This document shows positions 9,001-15,000 of a DNA stretch of 64,000 nt, piece after piece. A program made the position numbers. Within the stretch, counting starts at the first letter, position 1; every line of letters starts with the position of its first letter. This DNA is from a virus (Duplodnaviria > Heunggongvirae > Uroviricota > Caudoviricetes), in the IMG/VR virus record IMGVR_UViG_648028025_000010. One strand, 5' to 3'.

Positions 9001-12000
9001 GAACCAGCTCTTGCCATTGAGAAACAGCAGATGGGTCAACGCCAGCAGCTTTCGCTACTTTGGCTTTCGTACCGTAAAAATTAATTACGTCTGATTTAAA
9101 CATCGCACCTCCAATATTGAGTTTTCTCAATGCTAATCACTCAAGGAATCTCAAGTCAAGGGTTATTAAGATATCTAAATATGAACGAGAAAACTTTAGG
9201 TCAACGCATTAGAGAAAGACGTAAGCAGGTAGGCTTAAGTCAAAACGGTTTAAGCAAAGCTGCTGGCGTATCTGGCTCATCAATTTCATTATGGGAAAGT
9301 GACCATACAGCCCCGCGCGGGCAAAATTTGCATCGCCTCGCCGAGGTATTGCAATGTTCACCAACTTGGATACTGTTTGGCGACGAGGACAAAACACCAG
9401 CTCCCCCTGTTTCACTCGATAGTGCCTTAGACTTATCGGAAGATGAGTTAGAGATGCTGCGTTTGTATCGCGCACTTCCTAAATCAGAGCAACAAGCACA
9501 ACTCAGCGAACTCCGCGCCCGCGTTGAGAATTTTAATCGCCTGTTCACCGAGCTATTAGAGGCTCGCAAACGCAACAAGCATCAATAATCATCCCTTCAC
9601 AAAATTTTAAAGCCTTACATTTCAATGTATTGGCTTTATCTTGCGCCAACACTTGAGTTTTCTCATCAAAAAACCTTGACGAAAAATAATGAGAAAACTA
9701 AATTACCTCCATCAAGACACCGCACGGTGTTCTCAGCAAACAGTTCCGCTACCCCGGCGTTAAGGGGAAATGAGGTCAGCATGGATACTATCGATCTTGG
9801 CAACAGCGAATCTCTGGTATGTGGCGTGTTCCCCAACCAGGACGGCACGTTCACCGCGATGACGTATACCAAAAGCAAAACGTTTAAAACCGAAAATGGT
9901 GCCCGTCGCTGGCTGGAAAGAAACTCAGGTGAGTGATATGGATTTCAACACAATCATGGAAAAGGCTTACGAAGAATACTTCGAAGGCCTTGCCGAAGGC
10001 GAAGAAGCTCTCAGCTTCAGTGAGTTTAAACAGGCACTCAGAATAAGAATGTGCTCTCACAATGACGCGGAGCACAAATATGAGAAGCAAAATCAGACCG
10101 CAGAAAATTTTGTTCTGGAACCCGGAGAAACGCTTTTCAAAATTCCCGTTACGTGCCCCATTTGCGGTTTTACATCAGAAGAACTTGACGACTCCTGTAA
10201 CAATCAGGAAACAACCAAGTATGTCGAAGATGATACCGAGTGCGCACGAAGAACGATTATATCCACGAGTCCAAACTCCAGGACCAATAAATCTCACTAT
10301 GAGAGGGTGATTAATCCACTCCCCCAAACCAATAAAAAAGATGCCGGAGGACAAAAAACCCAATGGAACAACGGGATATCTGTCAAAAAAAGACGTTCCA
10401 TTAAAGACAAACAACGCAGCGCCAACAACTGTAAGCGCTTTATACCAGTAATCAATTTTCATGTTCTTAAGCGGATTTATTGGTGGTTGCGACATTGCTT
10501 AATGAATCCTTAAAACTGTGGTGATTTTAAGGATACCACCTCGCCTGACGTGGTTAAAAGCAGGCACACAACACGAAAGCGCACGGCGAAGTTCGTCTCA
10601 CTGTACGGTGTCGTTAAATTTAATTCGACCGTGCGCTTCCGGTTGTGGCAACCCGCAAAATGGCGCGGCGGTAAGTATGGCGGGGTTATTCCTTCCCCGT
10701 TGAGGACACCGGGTTGTCAGGTTGACCATACGCTTAAGTGACAACCCCGCTGCAACGCCCTCTGTTATCAATTTTCTGGTGACGTTTGGCGGTATCAGTT
10801 TTACTCCGTGACTGCTCTGCCGCCCTTTTTAAAGTGAATTTTGTGATGCGGTGAATACGGCTAAGCGCACGCGGAACAGTTAAAACCAAAAACAGTGTTA
10901 TGGGTGGATTCTCTGTATCCGACGTTAATTGTTAACTGGTTAACGTCACCTGGAGGCACCAGGCACTGCATCACAAAATTCATTGTTGAGGACGCGATAA
11001 TGAAAACGTTATTACCAAACGTTAATACGTCTGAAGGTTGTTTTGAAATTGGTGTCACTATCAGTAACCCTGTATTTACTGAAGATGCCATTAACAAGAG
11101 AAAACAAGAACGGGAGCTATTAAATAAAATATGCATTGTTTCAATGCTGGCTCGTTTACGTCTGATGCCAAAAGGATGTGCACAATGAATTCAGCATTTG
11201 CGCTTGTTCTGACAGTTTTTCTTGTTTCCGGAGTGCCAGTTGATATTGCAGTCAGTGTTCACAGGACAATGCAGGAGTGTATGACTGCAGCAACCGAACA
11301 GAAAATTCCCGGTAACTGTTACCCGGTCGATAAAGTTATTCACCAGGATAATATCGAAATCCCGGCAGGTCTTTAAAACAGTTCCGTAATAAATATCCGG
11401 TTTCATTCTTATATGCCAGCAATGGCAGGGATTTGTTCATCCTTAAATCTGTCATGAGGTTAAAACAAAATGAGTAAAGTCTTTATTTGCGCCGCTATTC
11501 CTGACGAACTGGCAACAAGGGAAGAAGGCTCTGTGGCTGTAGCCACAGCCATTGAAGCTGGCGACGAACGCCGTGCTCGAGCAAAATTTCACTGGCAGTT
11601 CCTGGAACATTATCCGGCTGCTCAGGACTGCGCTTATAAATTTATTGTCTGCGAGGATAAACCTGGCATACCCCGCCCTGCCCTCGATTCATGGGATGCT
11701 GAATATATGCAGGAAAACCGCTGGGATGAGGAGTCTGCTTCTTTTGTCCCGGTTGAGACTGAATCCGATCCGATGAACGTCACTTTTGACAAGCTGGCCC
11801 CTGAAGTACAGAACGCTGTCATGGTTAAGTTCGACACATGTGAAAACATCACCGTTGATATGGTTATTAGCGCACAGGAATTGTTGCAGGAAGACATGGC
11901 AACATTCGACGGACATATCGTTGAAGCGTTGATGAAAATGCCAGAAGTTAACGCCATGTATCCGGAGCTTAAGTTGCACGCCATTGGGTGGGTTAAGCAT

Positions 12001-15000
12001 AAATGTATTCCTGGTGCTAAATGGCCCGAAATTCAGGCAGAGATGCGCATCTGGAAAAAACGTCGCGAAGGTGAACGCAAGGAAACCGGAAAATACACGT
12101 CTGTTGTTGATCTCGCCCGCGCCAGAGCCAATCAACAGTACACTGAAAATTCAACAGGAAAAATCAGCCCGGTCATTGCTGCCATTCATCGCGAATACAA
12201 GCAGACATGGAAAACACTGGATGACGAACTGGCCTACGCTCTCTGGCCTGGTGATGTGGATGCCGGAAACATTGACGGCAGCATCCATCGCTGGGCAAAA
12301 AAAGAAGTTATCGACAACGACCGCGAAGACTGGAAGCGTATCTCGGCATCAATGCGCAAACAGCCTGATGCCCTTCGCTACGACCGCCAAACTATTTTTG
12401 GCCTTGTCCGTGAGCGTCCGATCGACATTCACAAAGATCCCGTAGCACTGAACAAATATATCTGCGAATACCTGACGACAAAGGGCGTGTTTGAGAATGA
12501 AGAAACAGACCTGGGCACTGTTGATGTTCTCCAGTCATCAGAAACACAAACTGATGCAGTGGAAACTGAGGTATCTGATATCCCAAAAAATGAAACCGCG
12601 CCGGAAGCTGAACCATCTGTAGAGCGTGAGGGGCCGTTCTATTTCCTCTTCGCAGATAAGGACGGAGAAAAATACGGTCGCGCAAACAAACTTTCTGGTC
12701 TGGATAAGGCACTGGCTGCTGGCGCCACTGAAATCACAAAAGAAGAATATTTTGCCCGAAAAAATGGCACATACACGGGCTTACCGCAAAATGTAGATAC
12801 CGCTGAAGATTCAGAACAACCAGAGCCGATAAAAGTTACCGCTGACGAAGTAAACAAAATTATGCAGGCAGCCAATATCAGCCAGCCTGACGCCGATAAG
12901 TTGCTTGCTGCATCACGTGGTGAATTTGTTGAAGGGATTAGTGACCCGAATGATCCGAAATGGGTTAAGGGGATCCAGACCCGCGATTCTGTGAACCAGA
13001 ACCAGCATGAATCGGAACGGAACTACCAAAAAGCGGAACAAAACAGTCCAAATGCGTTACAAAACGAGCCAGAAACGAAACAGCCTGAACCAGTGGCGCA
13101 ACAGGAAGTGGAAAAAGCCTGCACCGCCTGCGGTCAGACCGGCGGCGGCAACTGCCCTGATTGTGGCGCGGTGATGGGCGACGCAACATACCAAGAAACA
13201 TTCGATGAAGAGTATCAGGTTGAAGTTCAGGAAGATGATCCGGAGGAAATGGAAGGCGCTGAACATCCACACAAGGAGAACACTGGCGGCAATCAGCATC
13301 ACAATAGCGATAATGAAACTGGCGAGACGGCAGATCACCCAATTAAGGTGAACGGTCATCACGAAATCACATCCACCAGCAGGACGTGTGACCATCTAAT
13401 GATCGACCTTGAAACCATGGGAAAAAATCCTGATGCCCCGATCATCTCAATAGGTGCAATATTTTTCGATCCGCAAACCGGAGATATGGGACCGGAATTT
13501 AGTAAGACTATCGATCTGGAAACTGCTGGCGGAGTCATTGATCGGGACACCATTAAATGGTGGCTTAAGCAATCACGCGAAGCGCAATCTGCCATTATGA
13601 CCGATGAAATCCCGTTAGATGATGCACTGTTACAATTGCGGGAATTTATCGACGAAAACTCCGGTGAATTTTTTGTTCAGGTCTGGGGAAATGGAGCCAA
13701 CTTCGACAACACGATTTTGCGCCGTTCATACGAACGGCAGGGGATCCCCTGCCCGTGGCGTTACTACAACGATCGCGATGTACGCACAATCGTTGAGCTG
13801 GGGAAAGCCATAGACTTCGATGCCAGAACGGCTATTCCATTCGAAGGTGAGCGCCATAATGCACTTGATGACGCCCGTTACCAGGCAAAATACGTTTCAG
13901 TTATCTGGCAAAAACTGATCCCGAGTCAGGCTGATTCTTAATGTTCAACTGTCGCCGGTTGTGACTGGTATTCTGCAACCGGCGCTCGTCTGATGTAAGA
14001 GATAAAGAAATCGATGAGCGAAGTAATCATGATTGTCTCTCCCGGCAAATGGGTATCCGAAGAGCAGTTAATTGCGCTGAAAGGAATAAAAAAAGGTACG
14101 TTAAAAGTAAGCGACTCGTCAGAACCGTATTGATATTTACTGAGAGCTCAGATCAACTTTCCAGGGCAACAGATCGCGTACCCGGTTTGCCGGCCAGTCC
14201 TGGATATGTTCAATGACGTAACGCAGCCACTTTTCTGGCTCCACATTGTTCAGACGGCATGTGCCGATCAGCGAGTACAACACCGCCGCATGTTCACCAC
14301 CGCTGTCGGAACCCGCGAACATCCAGTTTTTCCGGCCTACGGCCACTCCCCGTAAGGCGTTCTCTGCGATGTTGTTGTCGATTTCCACCCAGCCATTACT
14401 GCAGTACACGTTCAGTGCATCCCACTGTTTCAGCAGGTATGCGAACGCTTTTGCCGTATCTGAGTGACGCGACAGTGTTTTCATCTGTTGCTGTATCCAG
14501 TCATACAGTGACTGCATCAGTGGCGCGGCTCTGGCTTTTCTTGCCGCCAGACGCTGTTCTGCTGAACAGCCCCGGACCTCTGCCTCGATGGCATACAGTT
14601 CACCGATACGCTGCAGGGCTTCCGTGGTGATGTAGGTGGGCGCTCTTGCATGCACATCGTGGATTTTTCTCCGGGCATGAGCCATACACGCGGCTTCCGT
14701 TATTCTGCCGGATTCGTATAACGCCCGGTAACCACCGTAAGCATCGGCCTGAAGCACACCGCTGTAACCGGCCAGGTGATTTTGTGGATGGATACCTTTC
14801 CGGTCCGGACTGTACGCGAACCAGACCGCCGGGGGCATCTGTGAACCGGCGTTACGGTCATCACGGACGTAGACCCACAGCCGGGCTGTCCGGGTTTTAC
14901 CGCTGCCCGGCTCCTGGACCGGGACGGGGATATCATCAGCATGGACTTTACCGGGCATCAGCACATACTGGCGCAGGACGTCATACAGCGGCTCCAGCAG

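What the first reader, a model, noticed from the sequence alone, without database searches (positions are those of the whole stretch)
11470..13941. RecE-like protein whose nuclease domain is a DEDD-type 3'-5' exonuclease, with no RecT partner
The 823-aa protein shares the central RecE segment, including the CxxC-x-CPDC motif, but its last about 180 residues carry DnaQ-like motifs (DLETMG, WGNGANFD, HNALDDA) instead of a RecE-type nuclease. It is followed directly by xis, with no recT-like annealase. Prophage B begins a classical recE at 63036. A 3'-5' exonuclease in the recombination slot would not produce the 3' overhangs an annealase needs, so it probably has a different role.
Basis: partly seen in the sequence, partly recalled or inferred. 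Interest (0 to 1): 0.55.

Follow-up and report, generated by a model that had tools for sequence, protein, structure and literature searches.

The report
RecE-like prophage protein with 3'-5' exonuclease
This is a real, intact and very common E. coli prophage gene in which the non-catalytic body of the RecE recombination nuclease carries a DnaQ/DexA-type 3'-5' exonuclease instead of RecE's own nuclease and never has an annealing partner; its architecture is already catalogued, but its function has not been tested.

Summary
Window 11470-13941 (+) encodes an 823-aa protein. Residues 642-813 are a PF16473 DEDDh 3'-5' exonuclease (E 2e-67), and the closest solved structure is T4 DexA. Residues ~262-627 match the non-catalytic middle of Rac RecE, including the CxxC...CPDC motif. 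No RecE PD-(D/E)XK nuclease is present.

No annealase gene lies in this early-left operon (repressor, DicF, dicB, ydfD, exonuclease, xis, int). The same was true of 25 species-level relatives, of 80 viral contigs, and of the whole genome of phage Tritos, whose gene is 99% identical. All 80 RecE-nuclease loci used as controls carry recT.

Two corrections. The xis gene is split by an IS66-family element. The "classical recE" at 63036 is a second DEDDh-type gene.

The gene is not rare. It occurs in about 75% of complete E. coli genomes. K-12 ydfE is its truncated remnant. It already has Pfam (YdfE_N/YdfE_C) and PHROG 2082 models. A 2025 paper lists Tritos as the prototype of nuclease-only, Chi-rich lambdoid phages.

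Most likely it is an early-lytic enzyme that trims DNA 3' ends in phages relying on host RecBCD/RecA. That role is inferred, not shown.

The parts
11470..13941 (+). Complete 823-aa ORF: RecE-family scaffold plus C-terminal DEDDh exonuclease. It is the intact version of the K-12 pseudogene ydfE.
   Evidence: ORF. PHROG 2082 matches full length, 822/823. 99% identical to K-12 YdfE over aa 1-257. Precomputed Pfam PF27430 YdfE_N, PF27432 YdfE_C and PF16473.
11470..12084 (+). N-terminal module, aa 1-205 (alpha/beta domain 1-100 plus helical domain 105-205). This is the YdfE_N type. It is one of two alternative N-termini in the family; the other is PF06630 Exonuc_VIII.
   Evidence: AF2 pLDDT about 90. 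dN/dS 0.06-0.08. No informative fold match.
12190..12489 (+). Helical domain, aa 241-340. It is shared with the middle of RecE (RecE ~278-370) and with all variants of the family.
   Evidence: BLASTP. AF2 pLDDT about 93. dN/dS 0.08.
12625..12765 (+). Small beta/alpha mini-domain, aa 386-432 (GPFYF...GRANK). It is conserved in YdfE-type relatives.
   Evidence: AF2 pLDDT 82-89. Consensus in alignment A3. dN/dS 0.03-0.05.
12894..13336 (+). Acidic linker segment (aa 475-622) that is the only part similar to Rac recE at the DNA level (78%). It contains the GISDPNDPKW motif (aa 489-498). It marks two mosaic joints, near aa 474 and near aa 622-640.
   Evidence: blastn; BLASTP.
13120..13167 (+). CxxC-x7-CPDC putative zinc ribbon (aa 551-566), shared with Rac RecE. 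It is absent from more distant DEDDh-fused relatives.
   Evidence: sequences of P0251 and P0255.
13393..13908 (+). DEDDh (DnaQ/DexA-like) 3'-5' exonuclease domain, aa 642-813. Catalytic residues are D646, E648, D746, H796 and D801.
   Evidence: Pfam. Alignment with T4 DexA. AF2 model plus Foldseek.
13373..13380 (-). Chi site (GCTGGTGG) inside the gene. It is one of five in the prophage A part of the window.
   Evidence: The equivalent site in Tritos is at 27079.
9130..9588 (+). cI/DicA-like repressor at the head of the leftward early region.
   Evidence: Pfam HTH_3; annotation.
10774..10825 (+). DicF sRNA, lying upstream of the exonuclease in the same orientation.
   Evidence: Rfam RF00039, 76.7 bits.
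11000..11376 (+). dicB (11000-11188) and ydfD/DUF1482 (11185-11376), immediately upstream.
   Evidence: Pfam; RefSeq annotation.
14014..14106 (+). 5' fragment of xis (excisionase), 73 nt after the exonuclease stop codon.
14107..16807 (-). IS66-family element (tnpA, tnpB, transposase) inserted into xis.
   Evidence: ORFs; annotation.
16808..16972 (+). 3' fragment of xis.
   Evidence: Pfam DUF1233.
16992..19554 (+). Integrase gene, split by an IS3-family element at 18068-19224.
63036..64000 (+). 5' part of a second DEDDh-type RecE-like gene (prophage B), with the Exonuc_VIII-type N-terminus. It is cut off by the end of the window.

Best explanation
The gene encodes a modular early-lytic protein of a Qin/Tritos-type lambdoid prophage.

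Shown:
- About 630 N-terminal residues form the non-catalytic RecE-family scaffold. It has four folded domains under strong purifying selection, joined by acidic disordered linkers.
- The last ~180 residues are an intact Mg-dependent-type DEDDh exonuclease of the T4 DexA / Rv2179c family. This domain sits exactly where RecE has its PD-(D/E)XK 5'-3' nuclease.
- The family is combinatorial. There are two N-terminus types and at least four C-terminal effector types.
- Only the PD-(D/E)XK version comes with recT. The DEDDh version is always the last gene before xis-int, with no annealase and no anti-RecBCD gene.
- The phages that carry it are viable and Chi-rich.

Inferred:
- The gene is transcribed with the dicB operon, the P_L equivalent, and so is off in the lysogen.
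- The enzyme removes nucleotides from DNA 3' ends.
- It does not feed a dedicated annealase. Instead it trims or blunts 3'-tailed ends on phage replication and recombination intermediates.
- Those phages complete recombination-dependent growth through host RecBCD-Chi-RecA.
For: Domain identity: Pfam PF16473, E 2.4e-67. Catalytic D, E, D, H, D residues align with T4 DexA. Best structural match is DexA 8KEL.

RecE relationship: BLASTP aa 262-627 to RecE 278-592, and a partial NF007259 hit.

Modularity: relatives carry PF06630+PF16473, YdfE_N/C+PF12684, or YdfE_N/C plus other C-termini. The N-terminus type is independent of the nuclease type.

Partner rule: 80 of 80 PD-(D/E)XK loci have RecT, against 0 of 80 DEDDh loci. 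There is no SSAP in the 25 fused loci from different species, and only 1-2 kb of small ORFs lie between the repressor and the exonuclease. Distant relatives show the same arrangement. No SSAP, Exo, Gam or Abc2 is found anywhere in phage Tritos.

Functional gene: dN/dS is 0.03-0.08 in the folded scaffold domains, 0.16 in the DEDDh domain and 0.4-0.67 in the linkers. The gene is present in isolated phages HannyBb, Tritos, PhiR42_1 and mEp460_ev081.

Link to recombination: standalone homologues lie inside Erf-SSB-exonuclease-Abc2 modules. A PD-(D/E)XK sibling with the same YdfE-type N-terminus is followed by a RecT gene.

Host-dependence context: Tritos has 9 Chi sites on the top strand and 2 on the bottom, against 0.86 expected per strand. 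Zheng et al. 2025 (PMC12315714) list Tritos as the prototype of 'nuclease only, no SAP, no anti-RecBCD, Chi-rich' lambdoids and report DnaQ-like 3'-5' nucleases in lambdoid Rec modules.

No promoter-like or terminator-like site separates the gene from dicB-ydfD or from xis.
Against: No activity, polarity or substrate (DNA or RNA) was measured.

PF16473 is named after an RNase, Rv2179c.

The proposed cooperation with RecBCD is inference from co-occurrence only. In P22-like phages the standalone enzyme sits next to the RecBCD modifier Abc2, so the nuclease is not tied to RecBCD-dependent phages.

Zheng et al. explicitly decline to count DnaQ-type genes near int as Rec-module members. They also note that 3'-5' ssDNA exonucleases usually inhibit recombination.

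The scaffold has no informative fold match, so what it contributes is unknown.

Co-transcription with dicB rests on gene order and on knowledge of the K-12 dicB operon, not on data from this strain.
Confidence: 0.4

Rival explanations
1. It is a true recombination exonuclease for single-strand annealing through 5' overhangs. It resects 3' strands at DNA ends, and annealing is provided in trans by RecT/Bet of co-resident prophages or by host RecO/RecA, or by the RecE-like scaffold itself.
For: The same scaffold carries the RecE nuclease in siblings that pair with RecT. Another sibling's C-terminus gives a weak Rad52_Rad22 hit and sits between a Gam-like gene and Sipho_Gp157. Standalone homologues sit beside Erf and SSB. 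Full-length RecE, but not its nuclease domain alone, enhances linear-linear recombination (review PMC11611040). EHEC genomes carry up to 7 copies alongside many other prophages.
Against: There is no annealase in cis in any of about 105 fused loci, nor in a complete viable phage. The Rad52 hit is below the Pfam cutoff (17.9 against 20.3 bits), and profile comparisons with Erf, RecT and Bet found nothing. No annealing activity is known for the RecE N-terminus.
Confidence: 0.15
2. It is an anti-phage (superinfection-exclusion) nuclease of the HREX/EcD kind. It would digest incoming phage DNA that carries modified cytosines.
For: The closest solved structure is T4 DexA. A standalone E. coli homologue, EcD, was reported to digest 5hmC DNA and protect against T4 (PMC12153337). 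Standalone relatives at 58-90% identity exist. The gene is retained intact in a prophage whose xis and int are both broken and is found in about 75% of E. coli genomes.
Against: The position corresponding to DexA Asp90, whose loss was said to confer the defence-type dimer, is still Asp here. It is Ala in the EcD-like P0112. The position of DexA Trp152, needed for activity on 5hmC DNA, is Tyr here but Trp in P0107 and P0112. The gene lies in the repressed early-left operon with no promoter signal of its own. The EcD-like standalone gene occupies the same pre-xis early-operon slot in prophages. PADLOC gives only a weak generic DEDDh hit. The gene has decayed in K-12 and in Shigella.
Confidence: 0.15
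3. It acts on RNA. It could be an Rv2179c-like 3'-5' exoribonuclease that processes or degrades host or phage transcripts, or a TONDO-like enzyme that blocks RNA phages.
For: The Pfam family is named for a mycobacterial exoribonuclease. RNase T, Orn and REXO2 are close structural neighbours. A 2026 preprint reports prophage-borne DEDDh exonucleases with auxiliary domains that defend against MS2 and Qbeta (PMC13344964). The gene lies downstream of the DicF sRNA, whose precursor needs 3' processing.
Against: The nearest characterised relatives, DexA and EcD, are DNases. The partner domains come from a DNA recombination protein. TONDOs were selected as ISG20 homologues under 500 aa, and no link to PF16473 could be checked because no sequences are held.
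Confidence: 0.1
4. It is a counter-defence enzyme. It would destroy single-stranded DNA or oligonucleotide molecules made by host immune systems, such as retron msDNA, DRT cDNA or signalling nucleotides.
For: It is expressed early in lytic growth, by position. 3'-5' ssDNA exonucleases are known to modulate reverse-transcriptase defences (title and abstract of a 2026 preprint listed). The family is very widespread in both temperate and virulent phages, with 643 phage records.
Against: This is purely conjectural. No co-occurrence or sequence evidence was obtained here, and the RecE-type scaffold has no known role of this kind.
Confidence: 0.07
5. It is a non-functional mosaic by-product of recombination between prophages.
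For: Sharp mosaic joints lie near aa 474 and near aa 622-640. The host prophage is defective. There are truncated copies in K-12 and Shigella.
Against: dN/dS is 0.03-0.16 in every folded domain. The catalytic residues are intact. The same architecture is conserved at 45-60% identity across many genera and in isolated viable phages.
Confidence: 0.03

Closest known systems
RecE (exonuclease VIII) of the Rac prophage, partner of RecT
   Same: It shares the non-catalytic middle region (aa 262-627 against RecE 278-592), including the GISDPNDPKW motif, the CxxC...CPDC ribbon and the acidic linker. It is a similar size (823 against 866 aa). It occupies the same place in a lambdoid early-left operon close to xis-int.
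   Different: There is no PF12684 PD-(D/E)XK nuclease domain and no PF06630 N-terminal domain. The NCBIfam equivalog score is 281 against a cutoff of 1269. There is no recT. The predicted polarity is opposite.
T4 DexA (exonuclease A; PDB 8KEL/8KEN)
   Same: It is the best sequence and structure match among solved proteins. It has the DEDDh catalytic residues and about 27% identity. It is a phage-encoded 3'-5' DNA exonuclease with a documented role in DNA end processing during intron homing and in host DNA scavenging (PMC12153337).
   Different: DexA is a 227-aa standalone protein of a virulent phage, with extra loops. The protein here is an 823-aa fusion in a temperate phage. DexA Trp152 corresponds to Tyr here.
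EcD / HREX (standalone E. coli DexA homologue reported as an anti-T4 nuclease, NAR 2025)
   Same: It belongs to the same PF16473 family. The probable EcD-type proteins (P0112/P0107) are 58-60% identical to this domain. They are likewise the last gene before xis-int in prophages.
   Different: They are standalone proteins of about 185-189 aa. They have Ala at the DexA Asp90 position and Trp at the Trp152 position, where this protein has Asp and Tyr. The identification of P0112 as EcD-like is my inference from the residue numbering; the EcD sequence itself was not available.
'Tritos-type' nuclease-only Rec module and DnaQ-like nucleases of lambdoid phages (Zheng et al., Genome Res 2025, PMC12315714)
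   Same: The Tritos gene is 99.1% identical to this one and has the same dicB-ydfD-exonuclease-xis-int order. The paper's Table 1 lists this type as nuclease +, SAP -, SSB -, anti-RecBCD -, with many Chi sites.
   Different: The parts of the paper I could read do not describe the RecE-scaffold/DEDDh fusion, the swap of effector domains, or the strict link between nuclease type and recT. The supplementary tables were not available.
K-12 ydfE (Qin prophage pseudogene) / Pfam YdfE_N, YdfE_C
   Same: The first 257 residues are 99% identical. The locus is the same, dicB-ydfD-ydfE next to rspB.
   Different: The K-12 copy is truncated by IS2 and lacks the RecE-like linker and the exonuclease domain.

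Membership tests
RecE / exodeoxyribonuclease VIII | C-terminal PD-(D/E)XK 5'-3' nuclease domain (Pfam PF12684; RecE residues ~600-866) | tested here: not met
   There is no PF12684 hit, whereas Rac RecE gives E 4e-28. BLASTP alignment stops at RecE residue 592. The fold of the C-terminus is DEDDh.
RecE / exodeoxyribonuclease VIII | Full-length match to the NCBIfam equivalog NF007259 | tested here: not met
   281 bits against a cutoff of 1269. Only model positions 271-600 of 877 are matched.
RecE / exodeoxyribonuclease VIII | N-terminal Exonuc_VIII domain (PF06630) | tested here: not met
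   It is not detected in this protein. It is present in Rac RecE and in the second gene at 63036.
RecE / exodeoxyribonuclease VIII | Adjacent recT annealase gene | tested here: not met
   None is found in the window. It is absent from all 80 close and 25 species-level DEDDh loci, and present in all 80 control RecE loci.
RecE / exodeoxyribonuclease VIII | Shared non-catalytic central region | tested here: met
   E 3e-62, 40% identity over 366 residues, with about 85-90% identity (my estimate from the alignment) in aa 473-627.
DEDDh (DnaQ-like) exonucleases, Pfam PF16473 Rv2179c-like / T4 DexA group | Profile match above the curated threshold | tested here: met
   226.5 bits against a cutoff of 27; profile positions 2-177 of 177.
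DEDDh (DnaQ-like) exonucleases, Pfam PF16473 Rv2179c-like / T4 DexA group | Catalytic Asp-Glu-Asp-His-Asp set | tested here: met
   D646, E648, D746, H796 and D801 fall in columns that are invariant with DexA D7, E9, D119, H186 and D191.
DEDDh (DnaQ-like) exonucleases, Pfam PF16473 Rv2179c-like / T4 DexA group | RNase H-like DEDD fold | tested here: met
   AF2 pLDDT 84. Top Foldseek hits are DexA, RNase T, a DnaQ domain and Orn.
DEDDh (DnaQ-like) exonucleases, Pfam PF16473 Rv2179c-like / T4 DexA group | 3'-5' exonuclease activity and substrate (DNA or RNA) | not testable with these tools
   Needs biochemistry.
HREX / EcD anti-phage exonuclease | Loss of the tetramer-forming Asp (DexA D90; Ala78 in EcD) | tested here: not met
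   The window protein keeps Asp at this column. P0112 has Ala.
HREX / EcD anti-phage exonuclease | Trp equivalent to DexA W152 and Asp equivalent to D169, for 5hmC recognition | tested here: inconclusive
   The W152 column is Tyr here (Trp in P0107 and P0112). The D169 region aligns with gaps, so no call can be made.
HREX / EcD anti-phage exonuclease | Protection against T4 and selective digestion of 5hmC DNA | not testable with these tools
   Phenotype and enzymology are required.
YdfE family (Pfam PF27430 YdfE_N + PF27432 YdfE_C) | Hits to both models and identity to K-12 YdfE | tested here: met
   Precomputed Pfam hits are on record for this exact protein. 255/257 residues are identical to the K-12 ydfE product. 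The two models are not in the local Pfam copy, so their coordinates were not seen.
Tritos-type nuclease-only lambdoid early-left module (Zheng et al. 2025) | Nuclease present; SAP, SSB and anti-RecBCD genes absent | tested here: met
   Window. Whole Tritos genome. Gene 99.1% identical to the Tritos gene.
Tritos-type nuclease-only lambdoid early-left module (Zheng et al. 2025) | Abundant, strand-biased Chi sites | tested here: met
   Tritos has 9 top-strand and 2 bottom-strand sites against 0.86 expected per strand. The window holds only part of prophage A, with 5 Chi sites in about 19.6 kb, so the bias cannot be judged for the window itself.

The most novel reading that the evidence does not exclude
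The non-catalytic RecE-family region, whose function in RecE has been unknown for decades, is a general DNA-end-targeting or end-bridging platform onto which phages graft interchangeable effectors. These are a 5'-3' PD-(D/E)XK nuclease that needs RecT, a 3'-5' DEDDh nuclease that needs no annealase, a possible Rad52-like annealase domain, and a small C-terminal domain of unknown function. In this reading the DEDDh version blunts 3'-tailed ends so that host RecBCD can load and run to Chi. That would make it the phage-encoded half of a host-dependent recombination pathway in Chi-rich lambdoid phages that lack an annealase.
Probability: 0.15. Interest if true: 0.65.

Novelty: new variant of a known kind. 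Interest (0 to 1): 0.4.

Why it matters
The protein is one of the commonest uncharacterised prophage enzymes in E. coli. The DEDDh-domain DNA is found in 4047 of 5426 complete genomes, with up to 7 copies per genome.

It bears on two open questions:
- What the large N-terminal region of RecE does. Full-length RecE is the basis of linear-linear recombineering.
- How lambdoid phages without Red/RecET-type systems carry out recombination-dependent growth.

The clean rule found here gives a testable handle. The same scaffold carries interchangeable effectors, and recT accompanies only the 5'-3' nuclease version.

The result also cautions against reading the recently described standalone relative (EcD/HREX) as a chromosomal defence gene. 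Its probable orthologues are early-operon genes of prophages.

If the enzyme turns out to be merely a 3' trimming nuclease, the finding is ordinary.

Tried and rejected
1. RecE nuclease fold in the C-terminus: rejected by Pfam, PDB sequence search and Foldseek.

2. A missed annealase:
- tblastn with RecT, Bet, lambda Exo and Gam on the window found nothing in prophage A. Erf and Abc2 were tested on the related loci and on Tritos, not on the window.
- Pfam on all neighbouring ORFs found none.
- phmmer on 80 species-level loci found none. I repeated this with a divergent RecT after noticing that Rac RecT alone misses the RecT of locus L021.
- An inventory of upstream ORFs found only small ones.
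- The whole Tritos genome has none.
- Remaining caveat: single-sequence queries could miss an unknown annealase family.

4. Identity of the alternative C-terminus of P0254-type relatives: there was no PDB hit and hhalign against Erf, RecT and Bet found nothing. The only signal was a sub-threshold Rad52_Rad22 hit. I leave it as a hint.

5. Defence-system membership: PADLOC gave only a weak generic Cas-associated DEDDh hit.

6. Own promoter or terminator around the gene: the consensus scan found none, and fewer sites overall than in shuffled sequence. This is weak evidence either way.

7. Literature: searches for Rv2179c with phage, for ydfE and for PF16473 found no functional study of this protein. 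One search was wasted because 'RecE' matched 'receptor'.

8. I assumed strain E2865 was colinear with the window's right end. It is not. I found the matching genome RM10386 instead.

9. The first homologue search with the C-terminal domain listed only proteins under 350 aa. The full-length search listed only relatives at 86-94% identity. Diversity came from the representative search.

Full report
**1. What is in the sequence**

Window 11470-13941 (+) is an uninterrupted 823-codon ORF.
- DLET at aa 646-649
- WGNGANFD at aa 739-746
- HNALDDA at aa 796-802
- CTACGQTGGGNCPDCG at aa 551-566

Pfam places a full-length PF16473 'Rv2179c-like 3'-5' exoribonuclease' domain at aa 642-813 (E 2.4e-67, 226.5 bits against a cutoff of 27). 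It finds no other family in the local copy.

The NCBIfam equivalog for exodeoxyribonuclease VIII matches only its middle: model positions 271-600 of 877, 281 bits against a cutoff of 1269.

BLASTP against K-12 Rac RecE aligns aa 262-627 to RecE 278-592. The match is 40% overall and nearly identical from aa 473. It stops just before the RecE nuclease domain. At the DNA level only nt 1425-1867 of the gene resemble Rac recE, at 78%.

**2. The C-terminal domain**

A PDB sequence search finds only T4 DexA, entries 8KEL and 8KEN.

An AlphaFold model of the last 198 residues, built from an alignment of 37 homologues, has pLDDT 84. Foldseek matches it best to DexA (E 4e-11, TM 0.72), then to RNase T, a DnaQ domain, oligoribonuclease and REXO2. 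The RecE fold does not appear among the top 50 hits shown.

In an alignment with DexA, the five catalytic DEDDh positions are invariant.

**3. The rest of the protein**

Newer Pfam releases already have models for the N-terminal part. Precomputed hits PF27430 YdfE_N and PF27432 YdfE_C are on record for this exact protein.

The first 257 residues are 99% identical to the product of the K-12 pseudogene ydfE in prophage Qin, which is cut off by IS2.

An AlphaFold model of residues 1-470 (25-sequence alignment, mean pLDDT 78) shows four confident domains separated by disordered stretches:
- an alpha/beta domain, aa 1-100
- a helical domain, aa 105-205
- a helical domain, aa 241-340
- a small beta/alpha unit, aa 386-432

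Pairwise dN/dS against four homologues follows these boundaries:

| Region | dN/dS |
|---|---|
| Folded scaffold domains | 0.03-0.08 |
| DEDDh domain (against phage Evi) | 0.16 |
| Linkers | 0.4-0.67 |

**4. Genomic setting**

The window comes from an O26:H11-type EHEC chromosome. The gene sits in a Qin-like lambdoid prophage next to rspB. The gene order is:
- cI/DicA-like repressor (9130-9588)
- ydfA
- a 205-aa ORF with no Pfam hit
- DicF sRNA (10774-10825)
- dicB
- ydfD
- the exonuclease
- xis
- int

xis begins 73 nt after the stop codon but is split by an IS66-family element. int is split by an IS3-family element. Prophage A is therefore locked in place.

The intact order, exonuclease then xis then int, is seen in isolated phages HannyBb and Tritos.

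No sigma-70-like promoter or intrinsic-terminator-like site lies between ydfD and the gene or between the gene and xis. Together with what is known of the K-12 dicB operon (my knowledge), this makes it an early-left, repressor-controlled gene.

**5. Is an annealase missing or missed?**

In the window, tblastn with Rac RecT, lambda Bet, lambda Exo and lambda Gam finds nothing in prophage A. Every ORF of the operon has another identity or is too small.

I then surveyed relatives.

(a) One genome per species. Eighty loci carry the DEDDh domain.
- Twenty-five have intact fused genes of 676-851 aa.
- All those with downstream sequence in the locus run into an integrase gene within about 300 bp.
- None has a RecT, Bet, Erf, lambda-Exo, PD-(D/E)XK or Gam hit.
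- Only 1-2 kb of small ORFs lie between the repressor and the exonuclease.

(b) Divergent representatives at about 50% identity (P0251, P0255) show the order repressor, small ORFs, Rrf2-like protein, Exonuc_VIII-N+DEDDh, Exc, Int.

(c) Eighty viral contigs of each type. All 80 RecE-PD-(D/E)XK loci contain RecT. None of the 80 DEDDh loci contains RecT, Bet or Erf. Both N-terminus types occur with both nucleases.

(d) The complete 46-kb genome of Tritos, whose gene is 99.1% identical, has no hit to any annealase, lambda Exo, Gam or Abc2 query.

One caveat: my first RecT query missed a divergent RecT. I added that sequence and repeated the scan. An unknown annealase family could still escape.

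**6. A modular family**

An exhaustive search of 1.8 billion cluster representatives, followed by reading the long hits, shows two alternative N-termini:
- the YdfE_N type, as here
- the PF06630 Exonuc_VIII type, as in RecE

There are at least four C-terminal effectors:
- The DEDDh exonuclease.
- The PF12684 PD-(D/E)XK nuclease. Example: P0257, followed by a gene that Pfam calls RecT at E 2e-36.
- A domain with no family assignment. It gives a sub-threshold Rad52_Rad22 hit (17.9 bits against a cutoff of 20.3) and lies between a weak Gam hit and Sipho_Gp157 (P0254).
- A short 'LCANPA' C-terminus (P0249, P0265).

The window itself holds a second example of this shuffling. In genomes identical to the window over 60500-64000 it is an 820-aa PF06630+PF16473 protein followed by xis-int. 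It is 95% identical at the nucleotide level to gene A from codon 474 onward.

**7. The exonuclease domain elsewhere**

The DEDDh-domain DNA is found in 4047 of 5426 complete E. coli genomes, with up to 7 copies, and in 643 phage records.

Standalone versions of 180-235 aa occur in two recurrent settings:
- as the last gene before xis-int in YfdP/YfdQ-type prophages
- inside Erf-SSB-(endonuclease)-exonuclease-Abc2 recombination modules of P22-like phages

**8. Literature**

A 2025 paper reports that T4 DexA and a standalone E. coli homologue, EcD, digest 5hmC DNA and that EcD protects against T4. The authors call this HREX (PMC12153337).
- By residue numbering, EcD resembles P0112. This is my inference.
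- The window protein differs at the two positions said to matter. It keeps Asp where EcD has Ala. It has Tyr where DexA and P0112 have Trp.

A second 2025 paper reports DnaQ-like 3'-5' nucleases in lambdoid Rec modules (PMC12315714).
- It remarks that such enzymes usually inhibit recombination.
- It lists Tritos as the prototype of a class with a nuclease but no annealase, SSB or anti-RecBCD protein, and with many Chi sites.
- It proposes that lambdoid phages without Rec functions depend on host RecBCD acting at Chi.
- I confirmed the Chi enrichment in Tritos: 9 on the top strand and 2 on the bottom, against 0.86 expected per strand.
- The prophage A part of the window has five Chi sites, one of them inside the gene.

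I found no functional study of the fused protein itself.

**9. Interpretation**

Shown:
- the architecture
- the intact catalytic site
- purifying selection on all folded parts
- the swap of effector domains on a common scaffold
- the conserved absence of an annealase
- the Chi-rich, Rec-less background

Inferred:
- that the enzyme acts on DNA 3' ends
- that it is made only during lytic growth
- that its job is to trim or blunt ends for a host-dependent recombination or replication route

I give that reading about 0.4. The main rivals are recombination through 5' overhangs with annealing supplied in trans, HREX-like exclusion of modified-DNA phages, an RNA substrate, and counter-defence.

The standalone enzyme is embedded in Erf modules.

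**10. Verdict**

The finding is real and well described, apart from the IS-split xis and the mislabelled second gene.

It is not a rarity. The architecture is already in Pfam, PHROGs and RefSeq names, and the nuclease-only arrangement was published in 2025.

What the parts of the literature I could read do not state is the picture of a common scaffold with swappable effectors, and the all-or-none link between nuclease type and recT. That makes this an uncharacterised variant of known kinds, of moderate interest.

Noticed in passing
window 63036-64000 (continues beyond the window; L106:7537-9999): The gene taken for a classical recE is a second DEDDh-type RecE-like gene (820 aa, PF06630 N-terminus plus PF16473). 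It follows its own DicF-dicB-DUF1482 set and is followed by xis-int. The window therefore holds two such genes with different N-termini and nearly identical C-terminal halves.
   Followed up: yes
window 14014-16972 and 16992-19554: In prophage A, xis is split by an IS66-family element (about 14107-16807) and int by an IS3-family element (18068-19224). The prophage cannot excise, yet the 2.5-kb exonuclease ORF is intact.
   Followed up: partly
window 10774-10825 and 62344-62395: There are two copies of the DicF sRNA (Rfam 76.7 and 75 bits), one in each prophage. Each lies upstream of dicB and the exonuclease gene.
   Followed up: partly
window 10175-10495 (-) inside the 205-aa ORF 9896-10513 (+): An antisense 106-aa ORF with a hydrophobic, membrane-protein-like sequence overlaps a 205-aa ORF that has no Pfam, PADLOC or other family hit. 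It is unclear which of the two is the real gene.
   Followed up: partly
window 2031/2083 (+), 2616/2673 (-), 53291/53343 (+), 45017/45499 (-): Chi sites occur in close pairs 52-57 nt apart at corresponding places in both prophages, in the ydfU/DUF968 region in Tritos coordinates. There are 11 Chi sites in the window against 2.3 expected from shuffles.
   Followed up: partly
L020:5650-7986 (protein P0254) and relatives P0267, P0268, P0296, P0350: Relatives with the same YdfE-type scaffold carry a different C-terminal domain of about 230 aa. It has the motif GEAQKKSLTDALKKALSLLGFSADVWLGLYD and gives a sub-threshold Rad52_Rad22 hit. The gene lies between a Gam-like gene and Sipho_Gp157. It may be an annealase fused to the RecE scaffold.
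   Followed up: partly
L267:5001-5570 (protein P0112) and L016, L017: The standalone exonuclease that best fits the published 'bacterial defence' enzyme EcD is the last gene of a prophage early-left operon (cI, YfdP, DUF2303, DndB-like, exonuclease, xis, int). This questions its description as a host defence gene.
   Followed up: partly
proteins P0251-P0264, P0278 (linker before the DEDDh domain); window aa 590-597: A short acidic motif of the form (S/T)(D/N)VQMEE recurs about 60-80 residues upstream of the DEDDh domain in distant relatives. The window protein and Rac RecE have EEMEGAEHP at the corresponding place. It may be a docking peptide.
   Followed up: no
window 51415-51661, 55691-55865, 56574-56758, 49873-50042: Prophage B carries three tRNA genes, a sok antitoxin RNA, a C4 antisense RNA, isrK and STnc100 (Rfam gathering-score hits).
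   Followed up: no
L025 (contig labelled MAG Veillonella parvula), L049 (Geobacteraceae MAG), L060 (Actinomycetes MAG), L086 (Chryseobacterium), L101 (Streptomyces): Several species-representative assemblies of unrelated phyla contain enterobacterial-type copies of this gene at 52-100% identity (L025 at 100%). This most likely reflects contamination or mis-binning of those assemblies.
   Followed up: no
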